DNA of 64,000 bases from Salmonella phage vB_SenS-3 (OR896822.1); one strand, 5' to 3'. Numbered from the stretch's first letter, positions 5,615 through 63,013 are shown. Numbers and translations: made by a program. Notes: generated by a model from the letters alone, not told the origin.

Positions 5615-5641
5615 AAGGAGAGCTTCGGCTCTCCTTTTTTA
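5615..5641 (+). terminator. rho-independent terminator after major capsid gene
   Basis: Hairpin GGAGAGC-TTCG-GCTCTCC followed by TTTTTT. Confidence 0.75.
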
Positions 5642-5654
5642 TTGGGAAAAATAA

Positions 5655-6167
5655 ATGCAAATCATCACTGTTGAAGATTATAAACTATATGGGAACTTAA
5701 AACGTCCTGATATGGAAACTCAGGTTGAGATGATGATTAAAGCTGCCAATACGCTGATTACAAGCCTTCTAGGTATGGATGATGCAGACGCGGTAGATCA
5801 ATTAATCACCACAAAACCTAGCCGTAGGAAATATTTTCTGAGTTCCCCCTCAGCCACATCTATTACAAAGATTACTATTAACGAGAAAGAAATAGACCCG
5901 GAACAGTTTAAACTGTATCCTGATGGTGTTATTCTTCTTAAGTTTAATCCTCCTGAAGGGTATATGGATGTAGAGTATACTCAAGGTGGTTTCAATCCAA
6001 TGCCTGAAGATCTTAAACTGGCAGCATGTCTGTTAGTAGACCACTGGCATAAGCAAGATTATCGTCAAGCCAAGACTATTGGTGGTGAGACAGTTACGTT
6101 TAACAATACTAAGTCTGGTATTCCAGAGCATATTCGTACAATCATCGAAGTCTACAGGAGAGTATAA
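5655..6167 (+). CDS. head completion / head-tail adaptor protein (p144-like, by synteny)
   Basis: 170-aa ORF directly after capsid terminator; position matches connector genes of T5-like phages; no motif evidence. Confidence 0.45.
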   Translation: MQIITVEDYKLYGNLKRPDMETQVEMMIKAANTLITSLLGMDDADAVDQLITTKPSRRKYFLSSPSATSITKITINEKEIDPEQFKLYPDGVILLKFNPPEGYMDVEYTQGGFNPMPEDLKLAACLLVDHWHKQDYRQAKTIGGETVTFNNTKSGIPEHIRTIIEVYRRV

Positions 6168-10628: not shown

Positions 10629-10662
10629 TGGCTCTGGGTGATTTGCCCAGAGCCTTTTTTAT
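10629..10662 (+). terminator. rho-independent terminator immediately upstream of tape measure gene
   Basis: Hairpin GGCTCTGGG-tgatttg-CCCAGAGCC followed by TTTTTT. Confidence 0.7.
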
Positions 10663-10674
10663 TGGGAAAAATAA

Positions 10675-13600
10675 ATGACTGATAAGCTAATACGAGAACT
10701 ACTTATAGATGTAAAGCAGAAAGGGGCAACCCGTACTGCAAAATCTATTGAGAACGTTTCCGATGCGTTAGAAAATGCTGCTGCCGCTTCCGAACTGACT
10801 AATGAGCAGTTAGGAAAAATGCCCAAAACTCTTTACTCCATTGAGAGGGCAGCGGATAGAGCAGCTAAAAGTCTAACTAAAATGCAGGCTAGCAGAGGTA
10901 TGATAGGTATCACCAAATCTATGGATAGTATTGGTGCTAAGTTAGATGACCTTGCTATTGCTATGATTGAGGTATCCGATAAGCTAGAGTCTGGATTTAC
11001 ACATGTTGGTAAATCTGTTAAGGCGATGGGTAACGATGTAGCTGCTGCAACTGAAAAAGTTCAAGATAGATTATACGATACAAACCGTGTTTTGTCGGGT
11101 ACTACTAGAGGCTTCAATGATACTACCACATCCGCAGGTCGTGCTAGTCGTGCTCTAGGTAATACCTCTGGTTCTGCACGGGGTGCAACTCGTGACTTCG
11201 CAGCAATGGCTAAAGTTGGTGGTTCTCTACCTCTTATGTATGCTGCTATCGCATCTAACGTGTTCGTTCTACAATCTGCATTCGAACAACTTAAGATGGG
11301 TGACCAGTTAAACCGTCTGGAGAAGTTCGGTACTATTGTAGGTACTCAAACAGGTACTCCGGTACAAACTCTAGCTAGATCTCTACAAGAGGCTGCTGGT
11401 TATGCAATCTCCTTCGAAGAAGCAATGAGACAGGCATCCTCTGCTTCTGCATATGGATTCGATGCCGAACAACTTAATAAATTTGGTCTAGTAGCCCGTC
11501 GTGCTGCTGCTGTTCTTGGTGTTGATATGACTGATGCACTTAACCGTGTAATCAAAGGTGTATCTAAACAAGAAATCGAACTTCTGGACGAACTTGGTGT
11601 TACTATTCGTCTTAATGATGCTTACGCTGACTACGTTAAACAGTTAAATGCTGCTAACACAGGTATCACATATAACGTCAATAGTCTTTCCACTTTCCAA
11701 AAGCAACAAGCATATGCTAACGCAGTTATTGCTGAATCTACTAAACGTTTCGGCTACTTGGATGACGTACTCCGTGCAACTCCATGGGAACAGTTTGCTG
11801 CTAACGCTGATGCTGCACTAAGAAAGGTTCAACAGGCTGCTGCTAAGTATTTAGGGCCAGTAATTGATTCTATCAACGCAGTGTTCTATACTTCTCAAGC
11901 ATCTATCTCGGCCTCTGCTGCTAGAGCACAGGAAGAAACTAACCGCCAGATTGACCCAGCTAACATTGGTGCTGTAGCTTTAAGTCTTTCCGCTTCTGAG
12001 GAGGGATATAATAAAGCTCTTGATATGTATAAAGAGTCTCTGGATAAGCGTAATAAACTAAAGACTGAGTTTGATAAACGTATGTCCCAAGCAGATGCTA
12101 GTACTGCTGCCGCTATTAGATTAGTGGGTGAGGGAATGCCTGTTGGATTAGCTGCTGGGGGGTTTGAAGTAGGGGGAGTGCGCATAGGTTCTTCCGAAGC
12201 TAACAAAAAGTTTGTAGAAGAAACCGCAGCTATGGGACTACAGGTAGCAAGGTTAGGTAAAGAAGTTGATGATTCTACTGAAAACCTTAATGCTTGGAAA
12301 TCTGCGTATCAAGCTGCTGGTGCTGCGGCTGCTAAGACTAATCCAGAATTTCAGAAGCAGATTAATCTGCAGAAGGATATGAATGACCCTGATGCGGTTT
12401 ATGACTTTAACTCCGCAACTCTGAAAGGACTGACGGAACAGCAGAAAGCATATGATCAGGCTAAGAAAACTGCTAGTGATTTAGCTAACGATATCCAGAA
12501 CATCGCTCAGAATACTAATACTGCGGCTAAAACTAGTGCATCCCTATCAGATACGATTAAAACTATTGAGTCTCTTTCTGCTGGTACTGGTAAAAATGCT
12601 GATGAGTATGTTAAGAGTCTGAACTTAGGATATAATACTCTTAGTGAGATGAAGACTGCTTCACAAGCTCTTGCTGGTTACGTAAAATTAACTGGTAATG
12701 AGACTAAGAATCAGTTAGAAGTTCAGCAGAAGATTGCAGAAGTATACAACCAGACTAAGGACAAAGAGAAAGCACAGGAAGCTGGTAGACGTCTGGAAAT
12801 CCAACAGTTAGAAGAACAGGAAGCAGCTCTTAAACGTGTCCTAGAAACTAACAAGGGTAATAAAGCAATCGAGAATGAAATAGCTAAGATTCAGTTAGAA
12901 CGTATCAAAGTTACTAACCAGGGTATGGAAGCCCAGAAGAAGGTTAAGGACTATACGGATAAGATTCTTGGTGTTGATCGTGAAATTGCTCTCCTGAATA
13001 ACCGTACTATGACAGATACTCAGTATCGTTTAGCTCAGTTGAACCTTGAACTGACTGTCGAGAAAGAGAAATACACATGGTATACTAAGCAAGCAGATAA
13101 GCAGAAAGAAGCAGAACAGTCAAGACGTGCTCAGGCACAGATTGAACGTGAAATCTGGAAATTCCGTCAAGATCAGCAGATGGAAATGGCTTCTGGACGC
13201 GAAAGAGCTCTTAATATTTCACAGACTAGCAGAAACGTTACTGGGGAATCTCAGAGACTAACTGAACAGCAAGCTCTGTACCAAAGTTTACTGGAAATTA
13301 CAAAAGGAAATGCACAAGCTCAGGAAGAGTATAAGCGTAAAATCCAAGAAACTTCGGCAGCTCTAGCACAGCTTAAGATGCAACGCGATGCTCAGATGCA
13401 GCAGCAAGTCACTTCTTCTGTTGGTGGTGTTTACACTCCAACAACTGGACTGGAAGGAGATGATAAAGCAAATATGGATATGCAGAATAGAATGGCATCC
13501 TATGACCAGGCTATCTCTAAACTATCCGAGCTGAACTCTGAAGCAACTGCAGTGGCACAAAGTATGGGTAACCTAACTAATGCTATGATTCAGTTCTCTC

Positions 13601-14382
13601 AGGGATCTCTGGATACTACATCTTTAGTTGCTGCTGGTATGCAAACTGTGTCTTCAATGATTCAGTATAGTGTTGGTCAACAGGTAAGTGCTATTGATGC
13701 AGCTATTGCAGCAGAACAGAAACGTGATGGTAAATCTGAGCAATCCAAAGCTAAGATCAAGAAGTTAGAGGCTGAAAAGCTCAAGATCCAGCAAGATGCA
13801 GCTAAGAAGCAAATCATTATCCAGACGGCAGTAGCGGTGATGCAAGCAGCAACAGCTGTTCCATACCCATTTTCTATTCCTCTGATGGTTGCGGCTGGTT
13901 TAGCAGGTGCTATGGCTCTTGCTCAAGCATCCTCTGCATCTGGTATGTCTTCTATTGGGGACTCTGGTGCTGAGACAGCTGGTTACTTAACTCTTGGAGA
14001 GCGCCAGAAGAACGTAGACGTTTCTATGTCGGCTAACGCAGGAGAACTTTCTTATATTCGAGGGGACCAAGGGATTGGTAATGCTAACTCTTTCGTACCT
14101 CGTGCAGAAGGTGGTAATATGTATCCTGGAGTTAGTTACCAGATGGGTGAGCATGGTACCGAAGTAATCACTCCTATGGTTCCGATGAAGGCTACTCCTA
14201 CTGATGAACTCAAAGGATCTTCAAAGGGTACATCGGGTAGACCTATTGTGCTGAACATCAGTACGATGGATGCGGCTAGCTTCCGAGACTTTGCTTCGAG
14301 CAACAGTGCTGCTTTCAGGGATGCCGTGGAACAGGCTCTTAATGAGAATGGAACCACCCTGAAATCACTTGGTAATTCTTAA
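10675..14382 (+). CDS. tape measure protein (pb2-like)
   Basis: 1235-aa ORF, Ala/Gln/Lys-rich and coiled-coil-like throughout; hydrophobic segment near C-terminus (IIQTAVAVMQAATAVPYPFSIPLMVAAGLAGAMALAQA); located between chaperones and distal tail protein. Confidence 0.85.
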   Translation: MTDKLIRELLIDVKQKGATRTAKSIENVSDALENAAAASELTNEQLGKMPKTLYSIERAADRAAKSLTKMQASRGMIGITKSMDSIGAKLDDLAIAMIEVSDKLESGFTHVGKSVKAMGNDVAAATEKVQDRLYDTNRVLSGTTRGFNDTTTSAGRASRALGNTSGSARGATRDFAAMAKVGGSLPLMYAAIASNVFVLQSAFEQLKMGDQLNRLEKFGTIVGTQTGTPVQTLARSLQEAAGYAISFEEAMRQASSASAYGFDAEQLNKFGLVARRAAAVLGVDMTDALNRVIKGVSKQEIELLDELGVTIRLNDAYADYVKQLNAANTGITYNVNSLSTFQKQQAYANAVIAESTKRFGYLDDVLRATPWEQFAANADAALRKVQQAAAKYLGPVIDSINAVFYTSQASISASAARAQEETNRQIDPANIGAVALSLSASEEGYNKALDMYKESLDKRNKLKTEFDKRMSQADASTAAAIRLVGEGMPVGLAAGGFEVGGVRIGSSEANKKFVEETAAMGLQVARLGKEVDDSTENLNAWKSAYQAAGAAAAKTNPEFQKQINLQKDMNDPDAVYDFNSATLKGLTEQQKAYDQAKKTASDLANDIQNIAQNTNTAAKTSASLSDTIKTIESLSAGTGKNADEYVKSLNLGYNTLSEMKTASQALAGYVKLTGNETKNQLEVQQKIAEVYNQTKDKEKAQEAGRRLEIQQLEEQEAALKRVLETNKGNKAIENEIAKIQLERIKVTNQGMEAQKKVKDYTDKILGVDREIALLNNRTMTDTQYRLAQLNLELTVEKEKYTWYTKQADKQKEAEQSRRAQAQIEREIWKFRQDQQMEMASGRERALNISQTSRNVTGESQRLTEQQALYQSLLEITKGNAQAQEEYKRKIQETSAALAQLKMQRDAQMQQQVTSSVGGVYTPTTGLEGDDKANMDMQNRMASYDQAISKLSELNSEATAVAQSMGNLTNAMIQFSQGSLDTTSLVAAGMQTVSSMIQYSVGQQVSAIDAAIAAEQKRDGKSEQSKAKIKKLEAEKLKIQQDAAKKQIIIQTAVAVMQAATAVPYPFSIPLMVAAGLAGAMALAQASSASGMSSIGDSGAETAGYLTLGERQKNVDVSMSANAGELSYIRGDQGIGNANSFVPRAEGGNMYPGVSYQMGEHGTEVITPMVPMKATPTDELKGSSKGTSGRPIVLNISTMDAASFRDFASSNSAAFRDAVEQALNENGTTLKSLGNS

Positions 14383-28471: not shown

Positions 28472-29245
28472 TTAGTCGTCCAGATCGCTAGCAGCTTCAG
28501 CGTCGATGCCTTTCTGAGAACCAGCATCTCCACCAGACTTAGCGTCACCGCCGTCTTGCTTCTCACGACCTTCCATGAAGGCGAGAATAGCTTCTTTCTG
28601 CTCTTCATAGGACGGAACCGGGTAGGTTTCTTCCAGAGAAGGAACTTTTTCGAACTTGATGAACTCACCAGTATCATCACACATAGCTTCACCGAGGATA
28701 TCAACATCAGCGGCGTGCAGTTTAGACTCAGCACTGGTAGGATCTTTCAGTTTCATCTGGAACTGCATTGCTGCGATCTGCTGTACATCGTACTCAGTAT
28801 CGAAGCCTTTACCTTTCTTCTCGATAGAAATATCGATATCGAATGGATCTGCCAGTTCAAGCTGCTTCATGATAGACTGGATGCCTTTCAGGATAGTAGC
28901 TTTAACTTCCATAACTTTCAGTTTGTTATCGGAACGGTCGATAACGAAGGCGATGTAGTTTTTCTTCGGTTTCAGCGGAACACGATTACCATCTTTGTCC
29001 AGCTCTTTCTCGAAGAAGCCCATTTCGTGAATCGGGTCAGCTTTACCGCGAACGAAGCTCTCTTTAGTACGGTTGAAACGCAGACACTCAAACGGAGCTG
29101 CATTACCATCTTTGTTAGTCAGCCAGTAGACATAACGTGGAAGAACACCAGAAACGATACGAACACGAGTTACACCGTTGTTGAATTTCAGGAAGTCGAT
29201 TTTATCGTTAGAACCGCCAGTAGTTTCGCCCCAAGACTTAGCCAT
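28472..29245 (-). CDS. putative ssDNA-binding protein (D11-like; acidic C-terminal tail)
   Basis: 257 aa; AAAGAGGAAA RBS; C-terminus DAEAASDLDD is acidic as in SSB-type proteins; weak inference. Confidence 0.4.
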   Translation of the reverse strand: MAKSWGETTGGSNDKIDFLKFNNGVTRVRIVSGVLPRYVYWLTNKDGNAAPFECLRFNRTKESFVRGKADPIHEMGFFEKELDKDGNRVPLKPKKNYIAFVIDRSDNKLKVMEVKATILKGIQSIMKQLELADPFDIDISIEKKGKGFDTEYDVQQIAAMQFQMKLKDPTSAESKLHAADVDILGEAMCDDTGEFIKFEKVPSLEETYPVPSYEEQKEAILAFMEGREKQDGGDAKSGGDAGSQKGIDAEAASDLDD

Positions 29246-31644: not shown

Positions 31645-32138
31645 AATTTTATTCTAAGTCTAGGAATTTCAGGCTCCTCTTGATGGACTTGATAAATAAC
31701 AGGGCTATTATTTACCAGAATATAGCTTATATAAGCTGGAACGTAGGATAGCACGAATGGGTATGGGACTTTAGCCACATAACATTGATACTTTCCATTA
31801 TAAATTCTTGCAGAATGCAGAACTTTAGACGTGATAACATCGTAGAACGTAGTTTTCTTCCAGTTAATGAGATTTCCATCAGAATCTATGAACTGGCTAC
31901 GCTTTGACCCAACTAATTGGGACAACATTGATATTCTACCACGAATAGGGTAGAGCTTATACGGTAATTCTTTCCGCTTCTCAAATAAGGCTAACCTACG
32001 TTGAGAGAATGTGCCAGGCAACTCCCTGTTATCTAGCACATATTTATTATATCTTGTTGTAATTACGGAATAATCACCTTCCTGCTCAATTGATACAAAC
32101 GCCCGTAAAGCATATACGGGCAATTTGAAATCAAGCAC
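31641..32138 (-). CDS. hypothetical protein
   Basis: 165-aa ORF between DNA polymerase and helicase genes, overlapping both by a few nt. Confidence 0.45.
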   Translation of the reverse strand: MLDFKLPVYALRAFVSIEQEGDYSVITTRYNKYVLDNRELPGTFSQRRLALFEKRKELPYKLYPIRGRISMLSQLVGSKRSQFIDSDGNLINWKKTTFYDVITSKVLHSARIYNGKYQCYVAKVPYPFVLSYVPAYISYILVNNSPVIYQVHQEEPEIPRLRIKL

Positions 32139-34698
32139 CTAAAATCCTTTTCACATTATCCAGATCTTTACATACAGCAATAAACTTATCATCCTTGTAC
32201 TTGCTGTGGTCTGGATGCTCTTTATCCATTGCAGCTAACTTCTTATACTCGAAATCTGCATCGAGTAATACACCCTTAACATAACGAGTATATTCATCAT
32301 CATCAATACAAGCGATTGATGGGTGCTGTTTCTTCATCTTACCACAAGAGTAGTCGCGAGAACCACCTTTCTCAGAATCAGAATCAATACCGATTGGGCA
32401 ACCAGGGATACTAATACCACGATCCTTCTGGATGTTACGAATCAGAATCTCGTTATACTGATCGATCAGATCTTCACGTACAATGGCAACCACGGAGTCG
32501 TGAACCAACATGACGATCTTCATCTCTTTTCCTAGACCCAGTGACAGGATTTCTTCATCAGCATCAATAGCACCTAACAACAGGCTATCAGAAGATGCAG
32601 ACTGAATGATTGCGTTAAATCCAGAACGGATTTCTTCACCTTGAACACCACGATCTTCGGAATGGATGTTGTGCAGACGACGCTTACGACCAAAGTGACT
32701 ATAGATGAATCCAAAGTTCTTGATCTGATCGTGGCACTTATCAATCCAACGCTTAAGCTGAGGGAACTGACCGAAGTAAGTTTCGATATAGTCCTTAGCA
32801 TCTGCAACGGTACATTCAACAAACGGTTCGCCTGTCTTAGCAGCCTGTTCCAGAAGAGCTTCGTTAACAGAATGAGCTACTTTCGCTGGGCCAGAACCAT
32901 ACAGAATACCGAAGGTAATTGCCTTAGCAGCCTGACGCAGAGCTGGGAACAGCTTTTTAACATCACGTGGTTCACAGGTCAGTTTAAATACCATGTGTGC
33001 GATGTTTGAGTGGAAGTCAGGGTATTTATCCGGCTCATTCTTCATGTTGATAAATACTTGTTGCATGTTTCTGTCACCAGACAGTACAGCAGCGTAATAA
33101 ACTTCCGCAGTTGTTAAGTCCCATGCGATTACACGATATCCAGGGGGAGCTACTACACAACCCTTGATAATAGATTCATCACGTGGTAACTGTTGCAGGT
33201 TTAGCTTACCAGAAGAACTCAGACGACCAGAAGTAGTCATGTGTTCGTGGAAACCGGTACGAATGCAACCATCTGCATCGATGCTCAGAAGAATCTTCTC
33301 AACATAAGTAGAGATCAGCTTAGTCAGCTTACGAATCTCTAGCAGAGTTTTAGCAATCGGGTGCTGAGTAGCCAGTTCATTCAGAGCTTCTGCATTTGTA
33401 GAATCTGCACCTGTATCCGTCAGTTTACCAGTTGGAGTCAAACCAACATAATCAAACAGAAGAACACGGAGTTGCTTAACAGAGTTCGGGTTAAACGCCT
33501 CGTTCTGATTCTTCTCCAGCTGAACGACTTCTGGATAAGTATACAGCTTCTCACGAGCCATATTTAATCGATGTGTCAACTGATACTGAGCTTCTTTCAA
33601 GCGATCAACGGAAATCGGTACACCACGATCTTCAACACGTTGCAGGAATACACAACCAGGCATCAGAACTTCGTAGTATAGACTGCAAAGCTTTTCGTTC
33701 TTCTCAATTTTTGGTAAGAAGAAGTTATGCAGACGCAGAGTAGCATCGGTATCTTTTGCAGCATATGGCCACATAATATCAAAAGGAATCAGATCATAGC
33801 TGAAATCCTCTTTTTTGATCTTATGTGCCTTGCAATAATCATCCTTGAACTTATCCAGTTCAAAGTCATAATCGCCCATGTCAGTATACTTCATAGCCAG
33901 AGATTTCAAGCCGTGAGTACCACGACGTTCATCAAGAACATAGTGTTGCAACATGGTATCATGAAGTCTACGCTCTTTATGTGCTTTCTCGAAGGAAAGT
34001 CTTAGATGATAGGAGTAAAAGTGCATATCGAACTTCAAGTTATGAAAAACGATCTGATGATTCTTGCTATCCAGAATTTTCTGGAGATAATGTACAGCTA
34101 CTTCGGTAATGCTGTCAGAGTCAATATAGACACCCTGATACTCTTGGTGAGACATAGAAACACCAAGAAGATAACCATCACGAGCATACAGAGCTGAGGT
34201 TTCGGAGTCGAATGCGATAGGTCCGATAACCATGTTATACACCATCTTGATGTATTCTTCAGCTTCGTCTGGATCAGTAATAGGACGATAATCACCAGCT
34301 TTTGCAATCTTCTCACGACCATTAATAATGTCGTGAATACTTTCAACAGTAGCATCGAAAACTGGTTTCATTTCAGGTTTAAAGTGTAGCTGAGCTGGAC
34401 TAATACTTGCAATCCAGTTGGCATAGCCACCATGCTCTACACGTTTACCAGTATAATCACCGATACCTTTCTTACCTGCGAAGTACAGGAAAGGTTCAGC
34501 ACCGACTAGCACAACAAAATCGTAATCGTTCGGATCGAACGGGTTATCTGGAGTTCCGATTGTAATATGCTTTTTCAGCAAACGACCAGATAACTTCTCG
34601 TTACACATATGGAATACATCAACTTCCTCACCATAAAGCTGGAAGTGTTTATCATAACGAGTGTTATTTAGAGCTTTATCAACTACTGCAATTTTCAA
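32131..34698 (-). CDS. DNA polymerase (family A, with 3'-5' exonuclease domain)
   Basis: 855 aa; exo motif IAFDSETSAL; motif B-like KAITFGILYGSG; motif C-like LVHDSV; apparent TTG start with AAAGGAGA RBS; same length as T5 polymerase. Confidence 0.9.
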   Translation of the reverse strand: MKIAVVDKALNNTRYDKHFQLYGEEVDVFHMCNEKLSGRLLKKHITIGTPDNPFDPNDYDFVVLVGAEPFLYFAGKKGIGDYTGKRVEHGGYANWIASISPAQLHFKPEMKPVFDATVESIHDIINGREKIAKAGDYRPITDPDEAEEYIKMVYNMVIGPIAFDSETSALYARDGYLLGVSMSHQEYQGVYIDSDSITEVAVHYLQKILDSKNHQIVFHNLKFDMHFYSYHLRLSFEKAHKERRLHDTMLQHYVLDERRGTHGLKSLAMKYTDMGDYDFELDKFKDDYCKAHKIKKEDFSYDLIPFDIMWPYAAKDTDATLRLHNFFLPKIEKNEKLCSLYYEVLMPGCVFLQRVEDRGVPISVDRLKEAQYQLTHRLNMAREKLYTYPEVVQLEKNQNEAFNPNSVKQLRVLLFDYVGLTPTGKLTDTGADSTNAEALNELATQHPIAKTLLEIRKLTKLISTYVEKILLSIDADGCIRTGFHEHMTTSGRLSSSGKLNLQQLPRDESIIKGCVVAPPGYRVIAWDLTTAEVYYAAVLSGDRNMQQVFINMKNEPDKYPDFHSNIAHMVFKLTCEPRDVKKLFPALRQAAKAITFGILYGSGPAKVAHSVNEALLEQAAKTGEPFVECTVADAKDYIETYFGQFPQLKRWIDKCHDQIKNFGFIYSHFGRKRRLHNIHSEDRGVQGEEIRSGFNAIIQSASSDSLLLGAIDADEEILSLGLGKEMKIVMLVHDSVVAIVREDLIDQYNEILIRNIQKDRGISIPGCPIGIDSDSEKGGSRDYSCGKMKKQHPSIACIDDDEYTRYVKGVLLDADFEYKKLAAMDKEHPDHSKYKDDKFIAVCKDLDNVKRILGA

Positions 34699-34760: not shown

Positions 34761-35651
34761 TTATACCAAATCTTTGAGCGATTCGGCAACTAAAATTTCA
34801 ATACGTTGAGCCAACATATCGATCTCTTCTTTATTTAAATCACCTGGGTCTTTGCCTTCTGGAAGAAGGAAGTTACCAACTATAGGTGTTAAACGTGTTT
34901 TTGTACGAATTAGCTTCGCTAGTGCTTGGGCAGCTTTATTACCAGAGGCATCATTATCTAGCAAGATAACAACTACTCTTACTCCAGCAATAATGTAAGG
35001 ACTAAACTTATCCGCAATGTTATCAGATGTAAACTGATGTGTACCAAAGCAGCAAGAAGCATAATCTACACCATTGTCTTCTAGATTTAACATATCAAAG
35101 ATACCTTCAACTAGAACAAGAACTGGTGTATTATATCGTACAGGGAAAATCGGTGGTGAAACTTGTTTTGGTTTTACTAAGTATTTAGGAGGGGCAGAAC
35201 TGTTTATAGAACGTCCCAGGAATAGGATATTGCGTCCAACAGCATCTGTTATTGGGAATACAATTCTGCCTTCCCAGTCTGCTTGATGTTGGAAAGCAAA
35301 ATATTTCTTCAAGGTCTTAGAACTGATACCTCGGAAATCACCTTCGAAAAGGTAAGCAGATTCAGGAATTGCAAGATTCGTAGATCCATTCCTAATCTCT
35401 GAAATCTTTTTACGTACTTGTGACAATCTTGGGGACTGTCTGTACTGAGTCTCATTAAAATAATGGTAAATGCTCGGTATTCCTCTACCGAAGCCACAGC
35501 TCAAGCAATGCATAATACCTGATTCAGGATCAATACGCAAGCTTGGGTGTTTATCATCATGATCTGGATTGAGACAACAGATGAGGATGTCCCCACCTGT
35601 GTCTTTGTATTCAATGCCTTTCAGATCAAGTAGTTCTGTTATTCTACTCAT
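34761..35651 (-). CDS. DNA primase (DnaG-like, zinc finger + TOPRIM)
   Basis: 296 aa; zinc ribbon CLNPDHDDKHPS...CLSCGFG; TOPRIM-like LVEGIFDMLNL and acidic DNDASG. Confidence 0.75.
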   Translation of the reverse strand: MSRITELLDLKGIEYKDTGGDILICCLNPDHDDKHPSLRIDPESGIMHCLSCGFGRGIPSIYHYFNETQYRQSPRLSQVRKKISEIRNGSTNLAIPESAYLFEGDFRGISSKTLKKYFAFQHQADWEGRIVFPITDAVGRNILFLGRSINSSAPPKYLVKPKQVSPPIFPVRYNTPVLVLVEGIFDMLNLEDNGVDYASCCFGTHQFTSDNIADKFSPYIIAGVRVVVILLDNDASGNKAAQALAKLIRTKTRLTPIVGNFLLPEGKDPGDLNKEEIDMLAQRIEILVAESLKDLV

Positions 35652-37120
35652 ATATCGCTGGCCTGTTCACCTGTTGAATTTTCAGCTTTGTCTTTCTTAG
35701 CACGTTTAGGTTGAGCTGGTTTATCCTTTTCAATAGGAATAACGAACTCAGCTTCCATTTGCGCAATATCTTCCATTGCTAGGTTGGTAGTGTTATCCAT
35801 TCGCAGAGTTTCCCAGTTCATCTTAGGCATAAACTTCACACTATCAGAGGAACGAGTCTTAACGAAGTCAAACATAATAGCACCTTGACCATTATCAGCT
35901 TTTGCAGCATTAAGATTAGCAGCCATATCTGCGGAATCAAGAATCCCTTTAGACATACGCGTTCTACCATCTTGGTCAATCTGATAAGGAGCAACACCAG
36001 CCACGTTATGTTTCTGGCAGATAGATTTGAAAGACGAACTAACAACCATCTGTTCTTTCCAGTCATACATGTCAATGGTCTTTGAATCTGGAAGTCTTGT
36101 TTGGTTAATATAGTCTAGAAGAGCTACAGTAACCTTATCACCATACTTAGCAACTAGTTTATTTAATTCTACGTCAACCGTCGTAATAGACAGTTCAGGA
36201 TCGTAAACGATGATCATAGGAGTGTGAAGTTCATAGCTTTCAAGGAGTTTACTTTCCATATCATAGAAGTCACTCATTTTAGCCATAGTGTACTGCTTAA
36301 CGAAACTATCGAAAAGCTCTTCACCACCATTAAACATTCTAGCCCTAGTTCTGGCTAATCTCAACAGAGCAGCACCTTCAAGAGTGTTATTACGCATTGC
36401 TAATGCAGATACTCCAGCTAACATAGCCAGATTACGTCTAAACACTTCGTGCTCTTTCATCTCAATTGAGAAATATGGAGCAATGTCTCCATTCAAATAT
36501 TGCTGAACCTGTATGTTTGAACAGATAATGGATTTACCAGTACCACGCCAACCACCAAGCAGTAACGTTTCTGTGCGAGCTAAACCAATTTGAGCGTCGA
36601 ACTCATTACAAATACCAAGAGCGATCAAGTTCAGTTTGGTATCTTCTTCTCTCTGGAAAATACGCATTGTGTCCGCGTTGAATACCTTTCCAGTATTCGT
36701 TACTTTCTCTTCTAATTTTAAGTGAAGGGAGGCAACTCGATTGAGAATTTCTCCCTGATCCAGCATTGTTAAATCTTGAAGCACGTCTGTTTCTAGAAGT
36801 TTCAGGAATAGATCCTGTGTATATTCAGCTTCTAGGACTTCAAGTGCCTGTTCCATGCTCACTTCTGGAATTTGAGTGTTAGCTAAGACGACAAGAGCTT
36901 GAGAAAGGCGGGCGTTCCTATTGGCCTCAAGCATCAGTGCGTCAATGGACGGCATTGCGTTATATTTCTTATAATAATTCTGGACGGCTTGGTAAATTGA
37001 GGAGAAAGCGTCATTAAAATGATCTTTATGCAGTTTTGAGAATGTTTCCAATGCTATTTGCTTCTGTTCAGAAGCGAGAAGCATCTTCAACACTACAGCT
37101 TGCACGTTAAACAAGGTCAT
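35648..37120 (-). CDS. replicative DNA helicase (DnaB-like)
   Basis: Walker A GGWRGTGKS; RecA-like core. Start moved to ATG at 37120 with AAAGGAGA RBS; ORF track gives 37171. Confidence 0.75.
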   Translation of the reverse strand: MTLFNVQAVVLKMLLASEQKQIALETFSKLHKDHFNDAFSSIYQAVQNYYKKYNAMPSIDALMLEANRNARLSQALVVLANTQIPEVSMEQALEVLEAEYTQDLFLKLLETDVLQDLTMLDQGEILNRVASLHLKLEEKVTNTGKVFNADTMRIFQREEDTKLNLIALGICNEFDAQIGLARTETLLLGGWRGTGKSIICSNIQVQQYLNGDIAPYFSIEMKEHEVFRRNLAMLAGVSALAMRNNTLEGAALLRLARTRARMFNGGEELFDSFVKQYTMAKMSDFYDMESKLLESYELHTPMIIVYDPELSITTVDVELNKLVAKYGDKVTVALLDYINQTRLPDSKTIDMYDWKEQMVVSSSFKSICQKHNVAGVAPYQIDQDGRTRMSKGILDSADMAANLNAAKADNGQGAIMFDFVKTRSSDSVKFMPKMNWETLRMDNTTNLAMEDIAQMEAEFVIPIEKDKPAQPKRAKKDKAENSTGEQASDI

Positions 37121-37202
37121 TCTCCTTTGCACGCTTTCGTGCCTTCTAAATGCAAAAAGGGGAAGGAGCATAGCCCCCTCCCCTTAGGTTTAATTTACCA
37201 GA

Positions 37203-37970
37203 TTATTCAGCAGCCGCAGCTTTTGCATCCAGTTTAGCACGCTTAGCGGCACCATCATAGTCCTTAGCAACCAGACCACGACGAGACAGCATAGATTTAA
37301 CACCGCGCTCAGACTTACCAGTTTTCTCAGCGATCTCAGCAACAGTCATGTTAGCCAGATCCAGACCTTCTAACAGATCTTCACGAGTTTTAGCACTTGA
37401 AGTTTCCTGTACCGGCATAGCAGCGATACGACCTTCACGAAGCAGGCTCAGAGCTTTACCACGGATCTGCTTAATATTGCGACCGAAGTGAGCAGCGATA
37501 GCTTCAATAGTAGCACCAGCAACAACCTGATTAACGAAATCAGTTTCTTCGTCAGGAGTGAAGGAACGAACAGCAGCAGTTTTTTCAGTTGGCTTAACAG
37601 AAGCAGTCATTTCCAGACTCAGGATCTTACCCTGTACCTGCTTAGCACCGAACTGACCACCAGCTACAGCAGCAGCGATTTCAGCGTAAGTATACTGACC
37701 AGCATGAGCGTTCAGGAAATCAACCAGTTCAGCTTCCTGTTCAGGAGTCCACGGGGATTTCTGTACTTCGTTAGCTTTCTGTACTTCGAAACCTTCTTTA
37801 CGCAGCTTAGAGCCAACAGAGCGAGCGGTAACGTCTTTACCAGTCTCGGTAGCCAGTTCAGCAGCGATAGCAGCTACTTGTTCTTGAGAGATTACAGCAA
37901 CACCCAGAGCAGTGGCTTTTGCTTTCAGAGACTCGGTTACACCTTCTACGTTCCAGTTCAGTTTAGACAT
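37203..37970 (-). CDS. DNA-binding protein with four HTH-like repeats (possibly D5-like)
   Basis: 255 aa; repeated units AEIAAAVAGGQFGAKQVQGKILSL / IEAIAAHFGRNIKQIRGKALSL / VAEIAEKTGKSERGVKSMLSRRGL; optimised codon usage; GGAG RBS. Confidence 0.5.
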   Translation of the reverse strand: MSKLNWNVEGVTESLKAKATALGVAVISQEQVAAIAAELATETGKDVTARSVGSKLRKEGFEVQKANEVQKSPWTPEQEAELVDFLNAHAGQYTYAEIAAAVAGGQFGAKQVQGKILSLEMTASVKPTEKTAAVRSFTPDEETDFVNQVVAGATIEAIAAHFGRNIKQIRGKALSLLREGRIAAMPVQETSSAKTREDLLEGLDLANMTVAEIAEKTGKSERGVKSMLSRRGLVAKDYDGAAKRAKLDAKAAAAE

Positions 37971-38745
37971 TATTATTTTTCTCCAATAGTTCTTTAATCG
38001 ACAGGATTTCTATCCCATTCGTTTCGGCTTTCTTATAAGATGAGGAAGAACGTTTTGATTCATCCTCACAGATTAGGTATTTGACGTCTTTGGTAACGGA
38101 CTTCTTGACCGTATATCCTAGACTTTCTAAATAGTTTGTTGCATCCGTTCGATTTGCAAAATCTTGCAAAGATCCGGTAATACAGATCGTGATTCCATTT
38201 GGCTGGGCAACTAAATCATCCGTAATGATGATATCAGCTTTAGTACCTCGAATACCAGTTGAGAATTTCCATGGTAATTCAATAACATCCTTGCCTTGTG
38301 GGGAATTTAGCCAGGTTTTGTAATTTTCTCCAGCCTTGCCGTCAGCCTTCACATCGTGGAAGCTAGTGCAATTTTGGGACAGTTTCTTTGCTGCAACCTC
38401 TCCAATAAGAGGAATTCCTAAAGAACCGAGAACCGAACCAAAGTCAATGTCTCCGCGAACCTTAGTATTTAACTCGCTAATCAACTTAGCGGCAACCTTG
38501 CTACCAACAGCTCCGACCAAATCTTCTTCGGTCAGGTAAAACAGTTCTGAGATCTTAGTCAGTTCCAGCTTCTCAATAGTTTTCGGGCCAAAGCCCTTTA
38601 ACTTCATTTTTGTGCAGAAGTTCTCGATTAACTTACTTGATTGCGCTGGACAGTTGGACTTATTCCTACAGAATAATTGCCCGTTGACAAGATCTAGCTT
38701 AGAACCACAAGAGGGACATTGTGTTGGAATTTCGATTTTCATCAA
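37963..38745 (-). CDS. NAD-dependent DNA ligase, C-terminal part (zinc finger, HhH, BRCT; subunit B)
   Basis: 260 aa beginning with zinc finger CPSCGSKLDLVNGQLFCRNKSNCPAQ, then HhH-like GFGPKTIEKL; own promoter upstream. Confidence 0.75.
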   Translation of the reverse strand: MMKIEIPTQCPSCGSKLDLVNGQLFCRNKSNCPAQSSKLIENFCTKMKLKGFGPKTIEKLELTKISELFYLTEEDLVGAVGSKVAAKLISELNTKVRGDIDFGSVLGSLGIPLIGEVAAKKLSQNCTSFHDVKADGKAGENYKTWLNSPQGKDVIELPWKFSTGIRGTKADIIITDDLVAQPNGITICITGSLQDFANRTDATNYLESLGYTVKKSVTKDVKYLICEDESKRSSSSYKKAETNGIEILSIKELLEKNNNV

Positions 38746-38772: not shown

Positions 38773-38801
38773 ATTATAGCAAGTATTTAAGCATTTAGCA
38801 A
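38773..38801 (-). promoter_or_regulatory. T5 early-type promoter for ligase B part
   Basis: Minus strand TTGCTA-17-TATAAT followed by ATTTATATAAATTGATAAGGAAG and ATG. Confidence 0.6.
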
Positions 38802-38865
38802 CTACAATTTTAACTAACTTTGCTTACCCTCGCCATAACTTTCTATCCCTCAACTGAATGATAAT

Positions 38866-38894
38866 AGTATATACCTAAGCGGCGAAAATGTCAA
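38866..38894 (-). promoter_or_regulatory. second sigma70 promoter between ligase parts
   Basis: Minus strand TTGACA-17-TATACT. Confidence 0.45.
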
Positions 38895-38944: not shown

Positions 38945-39919
38945 TTAGTCGTATACTCGCTCTACTATACAAGGGATTACACCACCAGCACGAATCACTC
39001 GAATCTGGCAACCGATCTCTAAATCGAGAGCGTTAATATAATCAACGTTATTAAGAGTTGCTTTAACGATTGTGGCATCATCAATAATCACCGGCTCGAA
39101 ATAACCAACTGGAGTTACTTTACCAGAAGCCCCTACTTGCCATTCAACTTTAACAAGTGTGGTAATTTCGCCTTCTTCATCCTCTTTAATAGCAAATGCA
39201 CCGCGAGGAAATTTATTAGTCCAACCTTCACGGAAGAATTTGTTGTTATCATTAATACGAACAACTTTACCATCCGTCGGAATCCACTTAAAGAAGGAAC
39301 GAACATTAACAACTGTCAAGAAGTTCTCATTCTCTAGCCAAAGCATATCTTTTAAATAGGCTTCTGTAATACCGACTGTTTCCGCTGAACACTGGATACC
39401 ATATGCAACGAAGATTAAACCACCTTCACCAATACGTTGCATGAAATCATCACTATCTTTCAGGTTAATAGCACCAGAAGCATAGTTACGTTTGTTCTCT
39501 ACTTCTTTAGTAATGAGAACTTCACCAGTGATTTGAGTTGGTACTTTTTGGGAAATAGTTTTGGGGATGTTCAGCATTTTAACATTATGCGTTACATCAT
39601 TCCCTAGAATACCGTTACCACGAGTTAACGCTTGAACAAACTCACCATTAATATATAATAGAGAAATCGCACAACCATCTAACTTATCAGTTTCAACCTG
39701 ACCAAGTGGGTTGAATGGAGCTTTATCACCACGATCGTAATAGACTTTCTGCAAAGAATACATACGATACAAATGAGGGATATCACCTTTCGGTCCGATT
39801 TCTTCCTCTAGTGGGAATCTTTTAATCAGACGATCATATTCTTCATCGGAAATAAGACTCATTCCCTGGTAGTACGCTTCTTGACAACGTTTAATAAAGT
39901 CTTTTACATTATTCATCAT
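38945..39919 (-). CDS. NAD-dependent DNA ligase, N-terminal part (adenylation + OB domains; subunit A)
   Basis: 324 aa; adenylation active-site motif KLDG (DKLDGCAISLLYING); ends exactly after the OB-fold region, where the zinc finger would follow. Confidence 0.8.
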   Translation of the reverse strand: MMNNVKDFIKRCQEAYYQGMSLISDEEYDRLIKRFPLEEEIGPKGDIPHLYRMYSLQKVYYDRGDKAPFNPLGQVETDKLDGCAISLLYINGEFVQALTRGNGILGNDVTHNVKMLNIPKTISQKVPTQITGEVLITKEVENKRNYASGAINLKDSDDFMQRIGEGGLIFVAYGIQCSAETVGITEAYLKDMLWLENENFLTVVNVRSFFKWIPTDGKVVRINDNNKFFREGWTNKFPRGAFAIKEDEEGEITTLVKVEWQVGASGKVTPVGYFEPVIIDDATIVKATLNNVDYINALDLEIGCQIRVIRAGGVIPCIVERVYD

Positions 39920-40886: not shown

Positions 40887-41297
40887 TTACTTAGTGATAG
40901 CTCGGATAGCTTCTGCCAGATGAGCAGCTGCTTTACCGGTCAGCTTGTCGATGATTGCGTAGTCCAGGAAGTCCGGGGCTAAGCCAGCATCAGAGAATGC
41001 AGAGCGAAGATCGGAGTGAGCCTGAGCTTTGGAAGTACGAGAACCACCAGAAGCTTTTTCTCCAGTAGATGCGCTTGATTTAGAAGTAGAGCCAGCAGCT
41101 TTCTTGATATACAGACCTGCTTTGGTCAGCTTCATACGAAAACCGTTCGGAGTTACACCATTTTCCTGAGCAATTTCGCTAACAATTTCCATGCTAACGC
41201 CCGGACGCTCATCCTCTGGGAATTGCTCCATACGAGCAACGTAGTCGGAAGACATTTTTTCGAACAGTTCATCAGTCCACTGAGTTGGAGTAGTCAT
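40887..41297 (-). CDS. hypothetical protein
   Basis: 136-aa ORF with a low-complexity Ser/Thr/Ala linker in the middle. Confidence 0.4.
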   Translation of the reverse strand: MTTPTQWTDELFEKMSSDYVARMEQFPEDERPGVSMEIVSEIAQENGVTPNGFRMKLTKAGLYIKKAAGSTSKSSASTGEKASGGSRTSKAQAHSDLRSAFSDAGLAPDFLDYAIIDKLTGKAAAHLAEAIRAITK

Positions 41298-60289: not shown

Positions 60290-60805
60290 ATGGCTAAGCA
60301 GAAAAACGCAAAAACTCAGGCAGCTCCGGCAGTTAAAACTTTCGCTCAGACCGAAGCCAATCGTAAGGCTCGTCTGGAACGTCATCTGCGTAAGCATCCT
60401 ACTGATGCTCAGGCTCAGACTGCCCTGAAGTCTGCGGCTCCGGTTCGCCAGAAGCCGAAGGCCAAGAACTCTACTCGCGCAACTGCTAAGCAGGTTGTGT
60501 TCATCAAGGGTGAAGGTCATAAGTCTGTACCGGTAACTCTGAGCTTTAACGGTGGTGCTGAGATGTTCGCCCGCAACGGTATGGCTCTGAAAGACTACGA
60601 AAAAGCAGTCAATCAGAAGCGTAAGCCAATGGCTGACGTAATGCGTGAATCGCGTGGACAGTTTGGCTCCGTTAAACCGAATATCTTCGGTGTAGAGTAC
60701 AGCCGTGACAACGTTCGCGCTCTGTGCTACGGTATCGGTATTAAGTTTACTGGTGCTTCTGATCGTAAATCCGCTAAACCTACTCGTAAGCGTAAAGCGA
60801 AGTAA
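60290..60805 (+). CDS. basic Lys/Arg/Ala-rich protein, possibly abundant nucleic-acid-binding protein
   Basis: 171 aa; strongly optimised codon usage; own promoter and downstream hairpin; function inferred only from composition. Confidence 0.5.
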   Translation: MAKQKNAKTQAAPAVKTFAQTEANRKARLERHLRKHPTDAQAQTALKSAAPVRQKPKAKNSTRATAKQVVFIKGEGHKSVPVTLSFNGGAEMFARNGMALKDYEKAVNQKRKPMADVMRESRGQFGSVKPNIFGVEYSRDNVRALCYGIGIKFTGASDRKSAKPTRKRKAK

Positions 60806-62374: not shown

Positions 62375-63013
62375 ATGACTACTCGTATCTCTAAAACTCG
62401 TGCTCTGGCAACTATCAAGTCTCTAGAAGCTAAAATCCGTAAAGCTACTGAACAACAGCTTTTGATTGCTGTTGGTGAAGGTAAGGATAAGAACCAAGTT
62501 GTAGTTGGCGCTGCAATCGAAGTAGATGCTCTGTCTACTCGTATTAAGACTGATTTCCAGTCTCTGTTGGATATGATGTCCCAGCGTGATCATCTGAAAG
62601 CAGCGCTGATCAAGAGCAATGCTGAAACTGTTGTAGAGATCGGTTCCCGATCTATGACTGTTGCGGAAGCAATCGAAGCTAAGCGTTCTATGGAACTCAA
62701 AGCTCAGTTGCTGGCTAACATGCGTAAGCAGTTCCATGCTGCTACTGTTAAGTTTAACACTCAGAAGGCTCAGTTTGATAACAAGTATGAGCGTTTGCAG
62801 GATACCATGGCTACCCGCGACAAGAAGACTTCTGAGGATGAAGTTAAGATGCAGCTTAACCTGCTGGAACTCAAGAACACTCCGTTCCTGATCGATCCGC
62901 TGGAGCTGGAAAAGCTGATCAAGCAACACGACGAAGAATACCAGGATTTTGCAACCAACGTTGACTTTGTTATGTCTGAGTCCAACGCCTCTACTTTTAT
63001 CGAAGTAGAGTAA
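62375..63013 (+). CDS. hypothetical protein
   Basis: 212-aa ORF, optimised codon usage, AAGGAAGA RBS. Confidence 0.45.
   Translation: MTTRISKTRALATIKSLEAKIRKATEQQLLIAVGEGKDKNQVVVGAAIEVDALSTRIKTDFQSLLDMMSQRDHLKAALIKSNAETVVEIGSRSMTVAEAIEAKRSMELKAQLLANMRKQFHAATVKFNTQKAQFDNKYERLQDTMATRDKKTSEDEVKMQLNLLELKNTPFLIDPLELEKLIKQHDEEYQDFATNVDFVMSESNASTFIEVE

What the first reader, a model, noticed from the sequence alone, without database searches (positions are those of the whole stretch)
37203..37970. Abundant-looking DNA-binding protein built from four HTH-like repeats
The 255-aa product contains four approximately 40-residue repeats each ending in a helix-turn-helix-like (I/V)AxxxG(K/R)xxxx(V/I)xxKxLSL unit, has highly optimised codons and a strong RBS, and sits between the replicative helicase and the ligase genes. 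It may correspond to the T5 D5-type DNA-binding regulator of the early-to-late switch, but that assignment is by position and composition only.
Basis: inference. Interest (0 to 1): 0.4.

Follow-up and report, generated by a model that had tools for sequence, protein, structure and literature searches.

The report
Phage T5 D5 DNA-binding protein orthologue

Summary
The ORF at 37203-37970 (minus strand, 255 aa) is real. It is 98% identical (251/255) to D5 (T5.118) of phage T5 and sits in the same gene order: ligA, ligB, D5, D6 helicase, primase, polymerase. The window comes from an Epseptimavirus-type Salmonella phage.

The four-repeat idea holds. An AlphaFold2 model (pLDDT 94) shows four helix-turn-helix units plus a C-terminal helix. 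Units 2 and 3 are clearly homologous by sequence. Units 1 and 4 are linked only by profile and fold. In every unit the third helix is basic and is the best conserved helix.

Codon bias is the highest, or among the three highest, in the window. The Shine-Dalgarno site is only moderately strong, in an unstructured A/T-rich leader.

The most likely mechanism is that a monomer places four recognition helices in successive major grooves and coats duplex DNA.

Verdict: already known protein. The modular anatomy is a modest addition.

The parts
37203..37970 (-). D5 coding sequence: 255 aa, 27.1 kDa, pI 6.8, no cysteine
   Evidence: ORF list and translation. 98% identity to T5 D5. PHROG 323 at E = 3e-71. 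Composition and charge.
37981..37984 (-). Shine-Dalgarno core GGAG, 10 nt upstream of the ATG, inside the 3' end of ligB
   Evidence: Sequence. Anti-SD pairing -6.4 kcal/mol, rank 13 of 52; leader folding energy -2.5 kcal/mol. Identical in T5.
37963..37970 (-). 8-nt overlap (ATGTCTAA) of the D5 start codon with the ligB stop codon: same operon, possibly translationally coupled
   Evidence: ORF coordinates. The same arrangement is in T5. A 14-nt overlap occurs in a marine relative at 53% identity.
37782..37958 (-). HTH unit 1 (aa 5-63): helices 11-22, 29-43 and 49-58. Recognition helix ARSVGSKLRK, with R50, K55 and R57 invariant
   Evidence: AF2 secondary structure. Invariant columns. Helix 3 conservation 0.88 and charge +4. 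hhalign against the GcrA DBD 81%.
37608..37754 (-). HTH unit 2 (aa 73-121): W74, helices 76-88, 95-101 and 109-118. Q113, G114, K115 and L117 invariant
   Evidence: R2-R3 z = 7.9. hhalign R2-R3 96%. The R2/R3 profile hits Myb-type repeats in the PDB at E = 1e-3 to 2e-2.
37425..37565 (-). HTH unit 3 (aa 136-182): helices 139-150, 155-162 and 166-178. G171, K172 and S175 invariant.
   Evidence: hhalign against the GcrA DBD 77% over 46 columns.
37266..37391 (-). HTH unit 4 (aa 194-235): weak first helix, then helices 210-217 and 221-231. Sigma-70 region 4.2-like. G223, L228, R230 and R231 invariant
   Evidence: Pfam Sigma70_r4_2 at 29.1 bits against a 25.7-bit cutoff. AF2. Conservation.
37209..37253 (-). 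C-terminal basic, alanine-rich helix (aa 240-254, net charge +3)
   Evidence: AF2. Charge and conservation. Its role is unknown.
37157..37185 (-). 13-bp GC-rich hairpin followed by a U-run, directly after the D5 stop codon. Its 5' arm is the D6 Shine-Dalgarno and its loop holds the D6 ATG. It probably acts as a terminator or attenuator that separates high D5 expression from lower helicase expression
   Evidence: Terminator scan. RNA fold -25.6 kcal/mol, z -2.5. Identical in T5. The D6 leader has the strongest predicted structure of 52 genes, -25.3 kcal/mol. The function is inferred.
38773..38894 (-). Two sigma-70-type promoter-like sites upstream of ligB (11/12 and 10/12 matches). They lie in the position where the T5 record annotates two promoters upstream of ligB, P-K 28a and 28b
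   Evidence: Promoter scan. T5 annotation. The correspondence between the two is inferred from position.

Best explanation
The gene encodes the orthologue of phage T5 protein D5. D5 is an abundant early protein that binds double-stranded DNA and is required for phage DNA replication, for turning late genes on and for turning early genes off.

Shown here:
- The protein is a string of four small helix-turn-helix modules plus a C-terminal helix. Three modules are full three-helix bundles and the fourth resembles sigma region 4.
- In each module the third helix is basic and is the most conserved helix. The first helices are acidic. The whole protein has no net charge.
- The gene is co-transcribed with the ligase B subunit inside the replication module.
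- Its codon usage is as biased as that of the capsid gene.

Inferred:
- A monomer lays its four recognition helices into successive major grooves, covering a few helical turns of DNA with little sequence specificity.
- Acidic-to-basic contacts between neighbouring molecules make binding cooperative, so the protein coats phage DNA.
- The coat changes the template. It occludes the strong early sigma-70 promoters. It limits polymerase action at the natural nicks of T5 DNA. It produces the replicating template on which late transcription depends.

My estimates: identity as D5 is near certain. I put four functional DNA-binding HTH modules at about 0.85. I put coating, rather than site-specific activation, as the basis of the switch at about 0.5.
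For: Identity:
- 251/255 residues identical to T5 D5.
- PHROG 323 at E = 3e-71.
- 514 phage records carry the gene.
- The same gene order is found in Epseptimavirus Sepoy and in a marine relative at 53% identity.

Function from the literature:
- The T5 record's note describes a DNA-binding protein required for DNA replication and late transcription and involved in shutoff.
- McCorquodale et al. [quoted passage not shown]

Architecture:
- AF2 model with pLDDT 94 and four HTH units.
- Internal repeat statistics.
- Pfam Sigma70_r4_2 above cutoff for unit 4 and sub-threshold HTH hits for the other units.

Functional constraint:
- Helix 3 of each unit has a majority-residue fraction of 0.88/0.86/0.71/0.80 against 0.64 overall, and charge +4/+2/+4/+3.
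- 14 of the 22 invariant columns lie in the four third helices (R50, K55, R57, Q113, G114, K115, L117, G171, K172, S175, G223, L228, R230, R231).
- The G-K pairs of R2 and R3 align with G38-K39 of GcrA, which contact DNA in the crystal structure (PMC5887438).

Abundance:
- CAI 0.724, the highest in the window.
- Nc 31.8, third lowest of 53 genes.
- The D5 homologue was among the major proteins by spectral count in Yersinia phage phiR2-01 preparations (PMC8624392).

Biochemistry from a 2026 preprint (PMC13405049):
- T5 D5 is a 26 kDa monomer by mass photometry.
- It is toxic to E. coli on its own.
- It triggers retron-Kva2 defence. The authors attribute this to an AlphaFold3-predicted HTH-msdDNA interface; binding itself was not assayed.
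- Of the four D5 changes in the escape phage, G53D lies in the recognition helix of unit 1, G232D one residue after that of unit 4, V149I in helix 1 of unit 3, and W74* at the start of unit 2.

From my memory of Rice et al. 1979 (J Biol Chem) and Fujimura & Roop 1983 (J Virol), not checked here: purified D5 binds duplex DNA cooperatively and inhibits T5 polymerase at nicks.
Against: - No DNA-binding experiment or DNA complex model was possible here. Coating and cooperativity rest on old literature that I could not open (PMC353123 is not held).
- pTM is only 0.55, so the relative arrangement of the four modules is uncertain.
- Strong conservation of base-contacting-type positions in all four recognition helices would also fit sequence-specific recognition.
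- The mechanism of the T5 early-to-late switch is still described as unknown, and D5 is not among the proteins reported to co-purify with RNA polymerase (PMC7472727).
- The retron escape phage carries a nonsense codon (W74*) in a gene reported as essential. This is unexplained.
- Units 1 and 4 are tied to units 2 and 3 only by weak profile scores.
Confidence: 0.65

Rival explanations
1. D5 is a sequence-specific late-gene activator that works as a sigma-70 cofactor in the manner of GcrA. One or more of its GcrA/sigma-4-like modules reads a DNA element at late promoters, while another surface contacts RNA polymerase holoenzyme.
For: - The closest solved fold is the GcrA DNA-binding domain.
- hhalign of the GcrA DBD against unit 1 gives 81% and against unit 3 gives 77%, both full length.
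- GcrA is a monomeric sigma-70 cofactor (PMC4647560, PMC9976885).
- T5 late genes are transcribed by sigma-70 holoenzyme and the switch factor is unidentified (PMC7472727).
- Some records annotate D5 as a 'late gene transcription factor'.
- Recognition-helix positions are invariant across the family.
Against: - D5 lacks the GcrA sigma-interacting domain. That domain needs a CCCH zinc finger (PMC5887438), and D5 has no cysteine at all.
- There is no Pfam GcrA match.
- D5 is not listed among the proteins that co-purify with RNA polymerase from T5-infected cells.
- Capsid-level codon bias points to stoichiometric rather than catalytic amounts.
- D5 mutants also fail in DNA replication.
Confidence: 0.2
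2. D5 is primarily a replisome or template-organising factor of the replication module. The loss of late transcription and of early shutoff in D5 mutants is then a secondary consequence of failed DNA replication.
For: - The gene sits inside, and is co-transcribed with, the conserved module ligA-ligB-D5-helicase-primase-polymerase. This holds from T5 to marine relatives at 53% identity.
- The T5 annotation lists a DNA replication requirement first.
- From memory of Fujimura & Roop 1983, D5 modulates T5 DNA polymerase on nicked duplex DNA.
- This reading is compatible with the best explanation rather than exclusive of it.
Against: - Nothing in the sequence links D5 to a specific replisome partner.
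- No origin-like repeat array was examined.
- The classical genetics, as summarised in the record, treats the late-transcription and shutoff effects as functions of D5 itself.
Confidence: 0.3
3. D5 acts as a sigma region 4 mimic. Its sigma-4-like modules compete with sigma-70 region 4 for -35 elements, or for the beta-flap, and so shut off early promoters directly.
For: - Unit 4 passes the Pfam Sigma70_r4_2 gathering score.
- The GcrA DBD, the best structural match, is itself closest to sigma-4 (PMC5887438).
- D5 is toxic to uninfected E. coli (PMC13405049).
Against: - T5 early and late promoters are reported to differ mainly in the discriminator, not in the -35 element (PMC7472727).
- D5 is not reported in RNA polymerase preparations.
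- The Pfam match covers only the 27-residue HTH core.
Confidence: 0.07

Closest known systems
Bacteriophage T5 D5 protein (T5.118, YP_006946.1; PHROG 323 'transcriptional regulator, D5-like')
   Same: - 251/255 residues are identical and the length is the same.
- Neighbours and orientation are the same, as are the overlap with ligB and the downstream hairpin.
- The four substitutions (A25D, T41A, T131A, A206V) fall outside the third helices.
   Different: Nothing of substance. The host phage is an Epseptimavirus-type Salmonella phage rather than Tequintavirus T5.
Caulobacter crescentus GcrA DNA-binding domain (PDB 5yiu; Pfam PF07750)
   Same: - It shares the pattern W-T-x-E ... G ... IA ... 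G ... G-K in the recognition helix.
- It acts as a monomer with sigma-70 holoenzyme.
   Different: - GcrA has one such domain plus a long linker and a CCCH zinc sigma-70-binding domain. D5 has four such domains and no cysteine.
- D5 gives no PF07750 match.
- GcrA reads N6-methyladenine sites. Nothing of that kind is known for D5.
Myb/SANT and other homeodomain-like tandem HTH arrays (c-Myb R1-R3, SNAPC4, Timeless DBD, Tc3 and paired bipartite domains, Sulfolobus Cbp1)
   Same: - These are tandem three-helix modules joined by linkers, each placing helix 3 in the major groove.
- A profile of units 2 and 3 finds SNAPC4 (E = 1.2e-3), Timeless (6.4e-3), MYB21 (9.4e-3) and c-Myb (0.024) in the PDB.
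   Different: - All scores are below family thresholds. Pfam Myb_DNA-binding gives 17.8 bits against a 24.4-bit cutoff.
- D5 lacks the three regularly spaced tryptophans of Myb repeats.
Phage phi29 protein p6 (functional analogue; from my own knowledge, not tested here)
   Same: It is an abundant early phage protein that binds duplex DNA cooperatively along the genome. It is needed for initiation of replication and takes part in early-promoter repression and the early-to-late switch.
   Different: The fold is unrelated, it binds the minor groove, and it acts as a dimer or oligomer. D5 is a four-HTH monomer. The analogy concerns role only.

Membership tests
T5 D5 orthologue group (PHROG 323) | Full-length sequence similarity to T5 D5 | tested here: met
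   98% identity over 255/255 residues. PHROG 323 at E = 3e-71 covering aa 1-253.
T5 D5 orthologue group (PHROG 323) | Position in the replication module between ligase subunit B and the DnaB-like helicase | tested here: met
   Window ORFs, T5, Sepoy and a marine relative.
T5 D5 orthologue group (PHROG 323) | Cooperative binding to double-stranded DNA; requirement for replication and late transcription | not testable with these tools
   Taken from the T5 record note, the title of McCorquodale 1979 and my memory of Rice 1979 and Fujimura 1983.
GcrA family (PF07750) | N-terminal three-helix DNA-binding domain | tested here: met
   [not shown]
GcrA family (PF07750) | Match to the family profile | tested here: not met
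   No PF07750 hit at E <= 10 for the whole protein or for single units. Only sub-threshold hits appear in distant relatives P0192 and P0253.
GcrA family (PF07750) | C-terminal sigma-70-interacting domain with a CCCH zinc finger | tested here: not met
   D5 contains no cysteine. The feature is defined in PMC5887438.
Sigma-70 family | Region 4.2 helix-turn-helix | tested here: met
   Sigma70_r4_2 at 29.1 bits against a 25.7-bit cutoff, aa 204-230.
Sigma-70 family | Region 2 (core binding and -10 recognition) | tested here: not met
   No Sigma70_r2 hit at E <= 10. The rest of the protein is three more HTH units.
Myb/SANT repeats (PF00249) | Match to the family profile above the gathering score | tested here: not met
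   17.8 bits against a 24.4-bit cutoff for aa 71-100; 13.1 bits for unit 2 alone.
Myb/SANT repeats (PF00249) | Tandem three-helix bundles with helix 3 as the recognition helix | tested here: met
   [not shown]

The most novel reading that the evidence does not exclude
D5 may be the unidentified nonspecific factor that hides replicating T5-like phage DNA from host DNA enzymes.

On this reading, an abundant array of four GcrA/sigma-4-like readers coats the major groove. The coat would keep Dam, Dcm and restriction-modification methylases off the DNA. The same template state would silence early promoters and license late ones.

Both Tequintavirus and Epseptimavirus genomes are reported to escape host methylation by an unknown, nonspecific mechanism (PMC10644984). 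D5 is conserved in both genera.

Nothing here tests this idea.
Probability: 0.12. Interest if true: 0.6.

Novelty: already known. Interest (0 to 1): 0.25.

Why it matters
D5 has been known genetically and biochemically since the 1970s, so finding its orthologue in a T5-like Salmonella phage is ordinary.

What the analysis adds is an explicit anatomy:
- four HTH modules, each with a conserved basic recognition helix;
- the GcrA DNA-binding domain as the nearest solved fold;
- a variable number of modules in the wider family.

It also bears on two recent observations. One is that D5 triggers a type IX retron. The other is that T5-like phages evade host methylation.

Tried and rejected
- **PDB sequence search with the full family profile.** No relative with a solved structure was found. 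The best hit was an engineered engrailed homeodomain at E = 0.012.
- **Pfam on single units.** This was run to test GcrA membership and gave no PF07750 hit.
- **Klimuk 2020.** It concerns gpT5.026, not D5, and was useful only for the state of the field.
- **McCorquodale 1979 (PMC353123).** It is not held in the library.
- **Literature searches for 'T5.118', 'D5-like', 'protein D5', 'T5 D5', 'D5 gene' and 'gpD5'.** Unrelated D5 and D52 proteins swamped the results. The only relevant paper returned was the retron preprint.
- **Wong & Sayers 2013.** It does not discuss D5.
- **D5 as a sigma factor or as a GcrA family member.** I considered both and rejected them on the missing region 2 and the missing zinc domain.
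- **Search for a D5 binding motif in the window.** I did not attempt it. Without binding data it would have been uninterpretable.

Full report
**What is there.** The window holds an ATG-to-TAA ORF of 255 codons at 37203-37970 on the minus strand. Its neighbours are all on the same strand. In transcription order they are:
- ligase subunit A (38945-39919);
- ligase subunit B (37963-38745);
- this ORF;
- a DnaB-like helicase (35648-37171);
- a primase (34761-35651);
- a family A DNA polymerase (32131-34698).

The start codon overlaps the ligB stop codon by 8 nt (ATGTCTAA).

**Identity.**
- Megablast finds the gene in 514 phage records, almost all of them T5-like phages of Salmonella, Escherichia and Klebsiella. 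It is annotated as 'D5 protein', 'putative transcription factor D5', 'late gene transcription factor' or hypothetical.
- In the T5 reference genome the same position holds D5 (T5.118). The record's note reads 'DNA-binding protein; required for DNA replication and late transcription; also is involved in shutoff of expression of ...'.
- The two proteins are 251/255 identical without gaps. PHROG 323, 'transcriptional regulator, D5-like', matches at E = 3e-71.
- The 100%-identical records include Salmonella phage Sepoy, an Epseptimavirus of the Demerecviridae.

**The repeats.**
- Smith-Waterman scores between the four segments were compared with 1000 shuffles each. Segments 2 and 3 are clearly related (z 7.9, no shuffle as good). 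Pairs 1-4, 3-4 and 2-4 are marginal (z 3.6, 2.9, 2.4). Pairs 1-2 and 1-3 are not detectable.
- Using profiles cut from an alignment of 39 homologues at 50-80% identity, hhalign gives 96% probability for 2-3, 75% for 3-4 and 56% for 1-4.
- An AlphaFold2 model built on that alignment is confident within domains (mean pLDDT 94) and less so about their arrangement (pTM 0.55). It shows three complete three-helix bundles (aa 11-58, 76-118, 139-178). A fourth unit has a clear helix-turn-helix (210-217, 221-231) but a weak first helix. A C-terminal helix spans 240-254.
- 'Four HTH-like repeats' is therefore right. The units are about 45-60 residues rather than 40. The quoted consensus fits unit 3 exactly, unit 2 with a shift, and units 1 and 4 loosely.
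- Pfam gives Sigma70_r4_2 above its gathering score for unit 4, and only sub-threshold HTH families for the others.

**Constraint.** In the family alignment the third helix of each unit is the most conserved helix. The majority-residue fractions are 0.88, 0.86, 0.71 and 0.80, against 0.64 overall. These helices carry the positive charge (+4, +2, +4, +3), while the first helices are acidic. The protein as a whole has 34 basic and 34 acidic residues, a pI of 6.8 and no cysteine. Fourteen of the 22 invariant columns lie in those four helices. I read this as all four units being working DNA-contact modules. That is an inference.

**Expression signals.**
- The codon adaptation index, using E. coli weights recalled from Sharp & Li, is 0.724. 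That is the highest of 64 ORFs in the window, just above the capsid-like gene at 4219-5595.
- A memory-independent measure agrees. The effective number of codons is 31.8, third lowest of 53 genes (median 44.1). Codon choices are typical of highly expressed E. coli genes (GCT 39/44, GGT 18/19, CTG 17/19).
- The Shine-Dalgarno is a GGAG core 10 nt from the ATG. It ranks 13th of 52 by pairing energy, and its leader is almost unstructured. It is good, not outstanding.
- The D5 homologue of Yersinia phage phiR2-01 was among the most abundant proteins in mass spectrometry of phage preparations (PMC8624392). This fits high abundance.

**Fold relatives.**
- No solved structure is related by sequence.
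- Foldseek with the whole model finds nothing significant in the PDB.
- My recalled GcrA sequence was verified against the PDB. Its family profile aligns full length to unit 1 (81%) and unit 3 (77%), and less well to units 2 and 4.
- The conserved G-K pairs of units 2 and 3 align with GcrA G38-K39, which contact DNA in the crystal structure (PMC5887438).
- That paper also notes that the GcrA domain is closest to sigma region 4. This agrees with the Pfam hit of unit 4.
- A profile of units 2 and 3 hits Myb-type repeats in the PDB at E = 1e-3 to 2e-2, and GcrA at E = 0.38.
- D5 is not a GcrA family member. It has no PF07750 match and lacks the CCCH zinc domain that binds sigma-70, having no cysteine at all.

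**Family breadth.**
- The word-indexed search found 759 proteins.
- The exhaustive profile search found 531 cluster representatives at E <= 1e-3. About 55 of these are full-length four-unit proteins of 233-262 aa.
- A marine relative at 53% identity keeps the order PC4-like, ligA, ligB, D5, DnaB helicase, primase, PolA, with D5 again overlapping ligB.
- Variants exist with five units (P0121, P0192, P0193, P0234). Others have about nine tandem units by the profile search (P0255, 9 matched stretches), or an N-terminal LuxR/sigma-4-type HTH followed by four to six D5-like units (P0253, P0236, P0263).
- The module is therefore a duplicating unit.
- The predicted structure of Vibrio phage D5 superposes on the whole model at TM 0.72-0.75.

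**What is known about function.**
- The T5 switch from early to late sigma-70 transcription is still described as mechanistically unknown. D5 is not among the proteins reported to co-purify with RNA polymerase (PMC7472727).
- A 2026 preprint reports several findings on T5 D5 (PMC13405049):
  - T5 D5 (255 aa) is the trigger of the type IX retron Kva2.
  - It is a 26 kDa monomer by mass photometry.
  - It is toxic on its own.
  - In an AlphaFold3 model an HTH of D5 binds the retron msdDNA stem-loop.
  - An escape phage carries G53D, W74*, V149I and G232D.
- On my map these changes fall in the recognition helix of unit 1, at the start of unit 2, in helix 1 of unit 3, and one residue after the recognition helix of unit 4.
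- From memory only, Rice et al. 1979 and Fujimura & Roop 1983 found cooperative binding to duplex DNA and inhibition of T5 polymerase at nicks.

**Mechanism.** My best reading is as follows.
- A monomer inserts four recognition helices into successive major grooves.
- It binds with low specificity and cooperatively.
- It coats phage DNA and thereby changes the template for both replication and transcription.

The rivals are:
- a GcrA-like site-specific sigma-70 cofactor;
- a primarily replicative role, with transcription effects secondary;
- a sigma-4 mimic.

None can be excluded without binding data. The sigma-4 and GcrA versions are weakened by the missing RNA polymerase contact domains and by the capsid-level expression.

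**Verdict.** The protein is already known. The explicit four-module anatomy, the GcrA-type fold and the helix-3 conservation are modest additions. They make the open T5 switch question, and the retron trigger, easier to dissect.

Noticed in passing
window 37157-37185 (minus strand): A 13-bp GC-rich hairpin (-25.6 kcal/mol) followed by UUUUUGCAUUU lies directly after the D5 stop codon. Its 5' arm is the D6 helicase Shine-Dalgarno (GGAGG) and its loop holds the annotated D6 ATG (37171). The D6 leader is the most structured of 52 genes. The sequence is identical in T5, whose record annotates no terminator there. It looks like a combined terminator and translational mask between an abundant and a scarce protein.
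   Followed up: partly
window 40887-41297 (minus strand), D3 protein: Residues 34-68 of the 136-aa D3 'DNA binding protein' resemble D5 unit 1 (hhalign 76%, 40% identity over 35 columns, including the KxGxxVxKA tail) and D5 unit 4 (57%). Some D3 and some D5 homologues carry the same precomputed Pfam family, PF26822, which is absent from the Pfam copy I could search. D3 also has high codon bias (CAI 0.63). D3 was mutated in the second retron-Kva2 escape phage (PMC13405049).
   Followed up: partly
proteins P0121, P0192, P0193, P0234, P0253, P0236, P0263, P0255: Relatives of D5 have different module counts. Some have five units, one of them with unit 2 duplicated. One 599-aa protein gave 9 matched stretches to the D5 profile. 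Proteins of 447-569 aa have an N-terminal LuxR/sigma-4-type HTH region followed by four to six D5-like units. Their genomic context was not examined.
   Followed up: no
window 5633-5657 and 10653-10677 (plus strand): An identical 25-nt leader, CCTTTTTTATTGGGAAAAATAAATG, precedes two late genes (5655-6167 and 10675-14382). In each case it follows a different GC-rich terminator-like hairpin. None is expected by chance in 100 shuffles.
   Followed up: partly
window 28472-29245 (-), 4219-5595 (+), 60290-60805 (+), 62375-63013 (+): These genes share D5's extreme codon bias (Nc 31-33, CAI 0.57-0.71). The first corresponds by position to T5 D11 (annotated single-strand DNA-binding protein) and the second is the capsid-like gene. 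The last two were not identified.
   Followed up: no
literature: PMC13405049: The retron escape phage T5.1 is reported to carry a premature stop (W74*) in D5, a gene classically described as required for replication and late transcription. D5 expressed alone also depleted tRNA-sized RNA. Neither observation is explained.
   Followed up: no
database records: Near-identical D5 sequences (98-99%) appear in records labelled Campylobacter phage A148 and Listeria phages, and as 'partial' proteins of Enterococcus faecalis (P0020, P0039). These are probably mislabelled or contaminating T5-like phage sequence.
   Followed up: no
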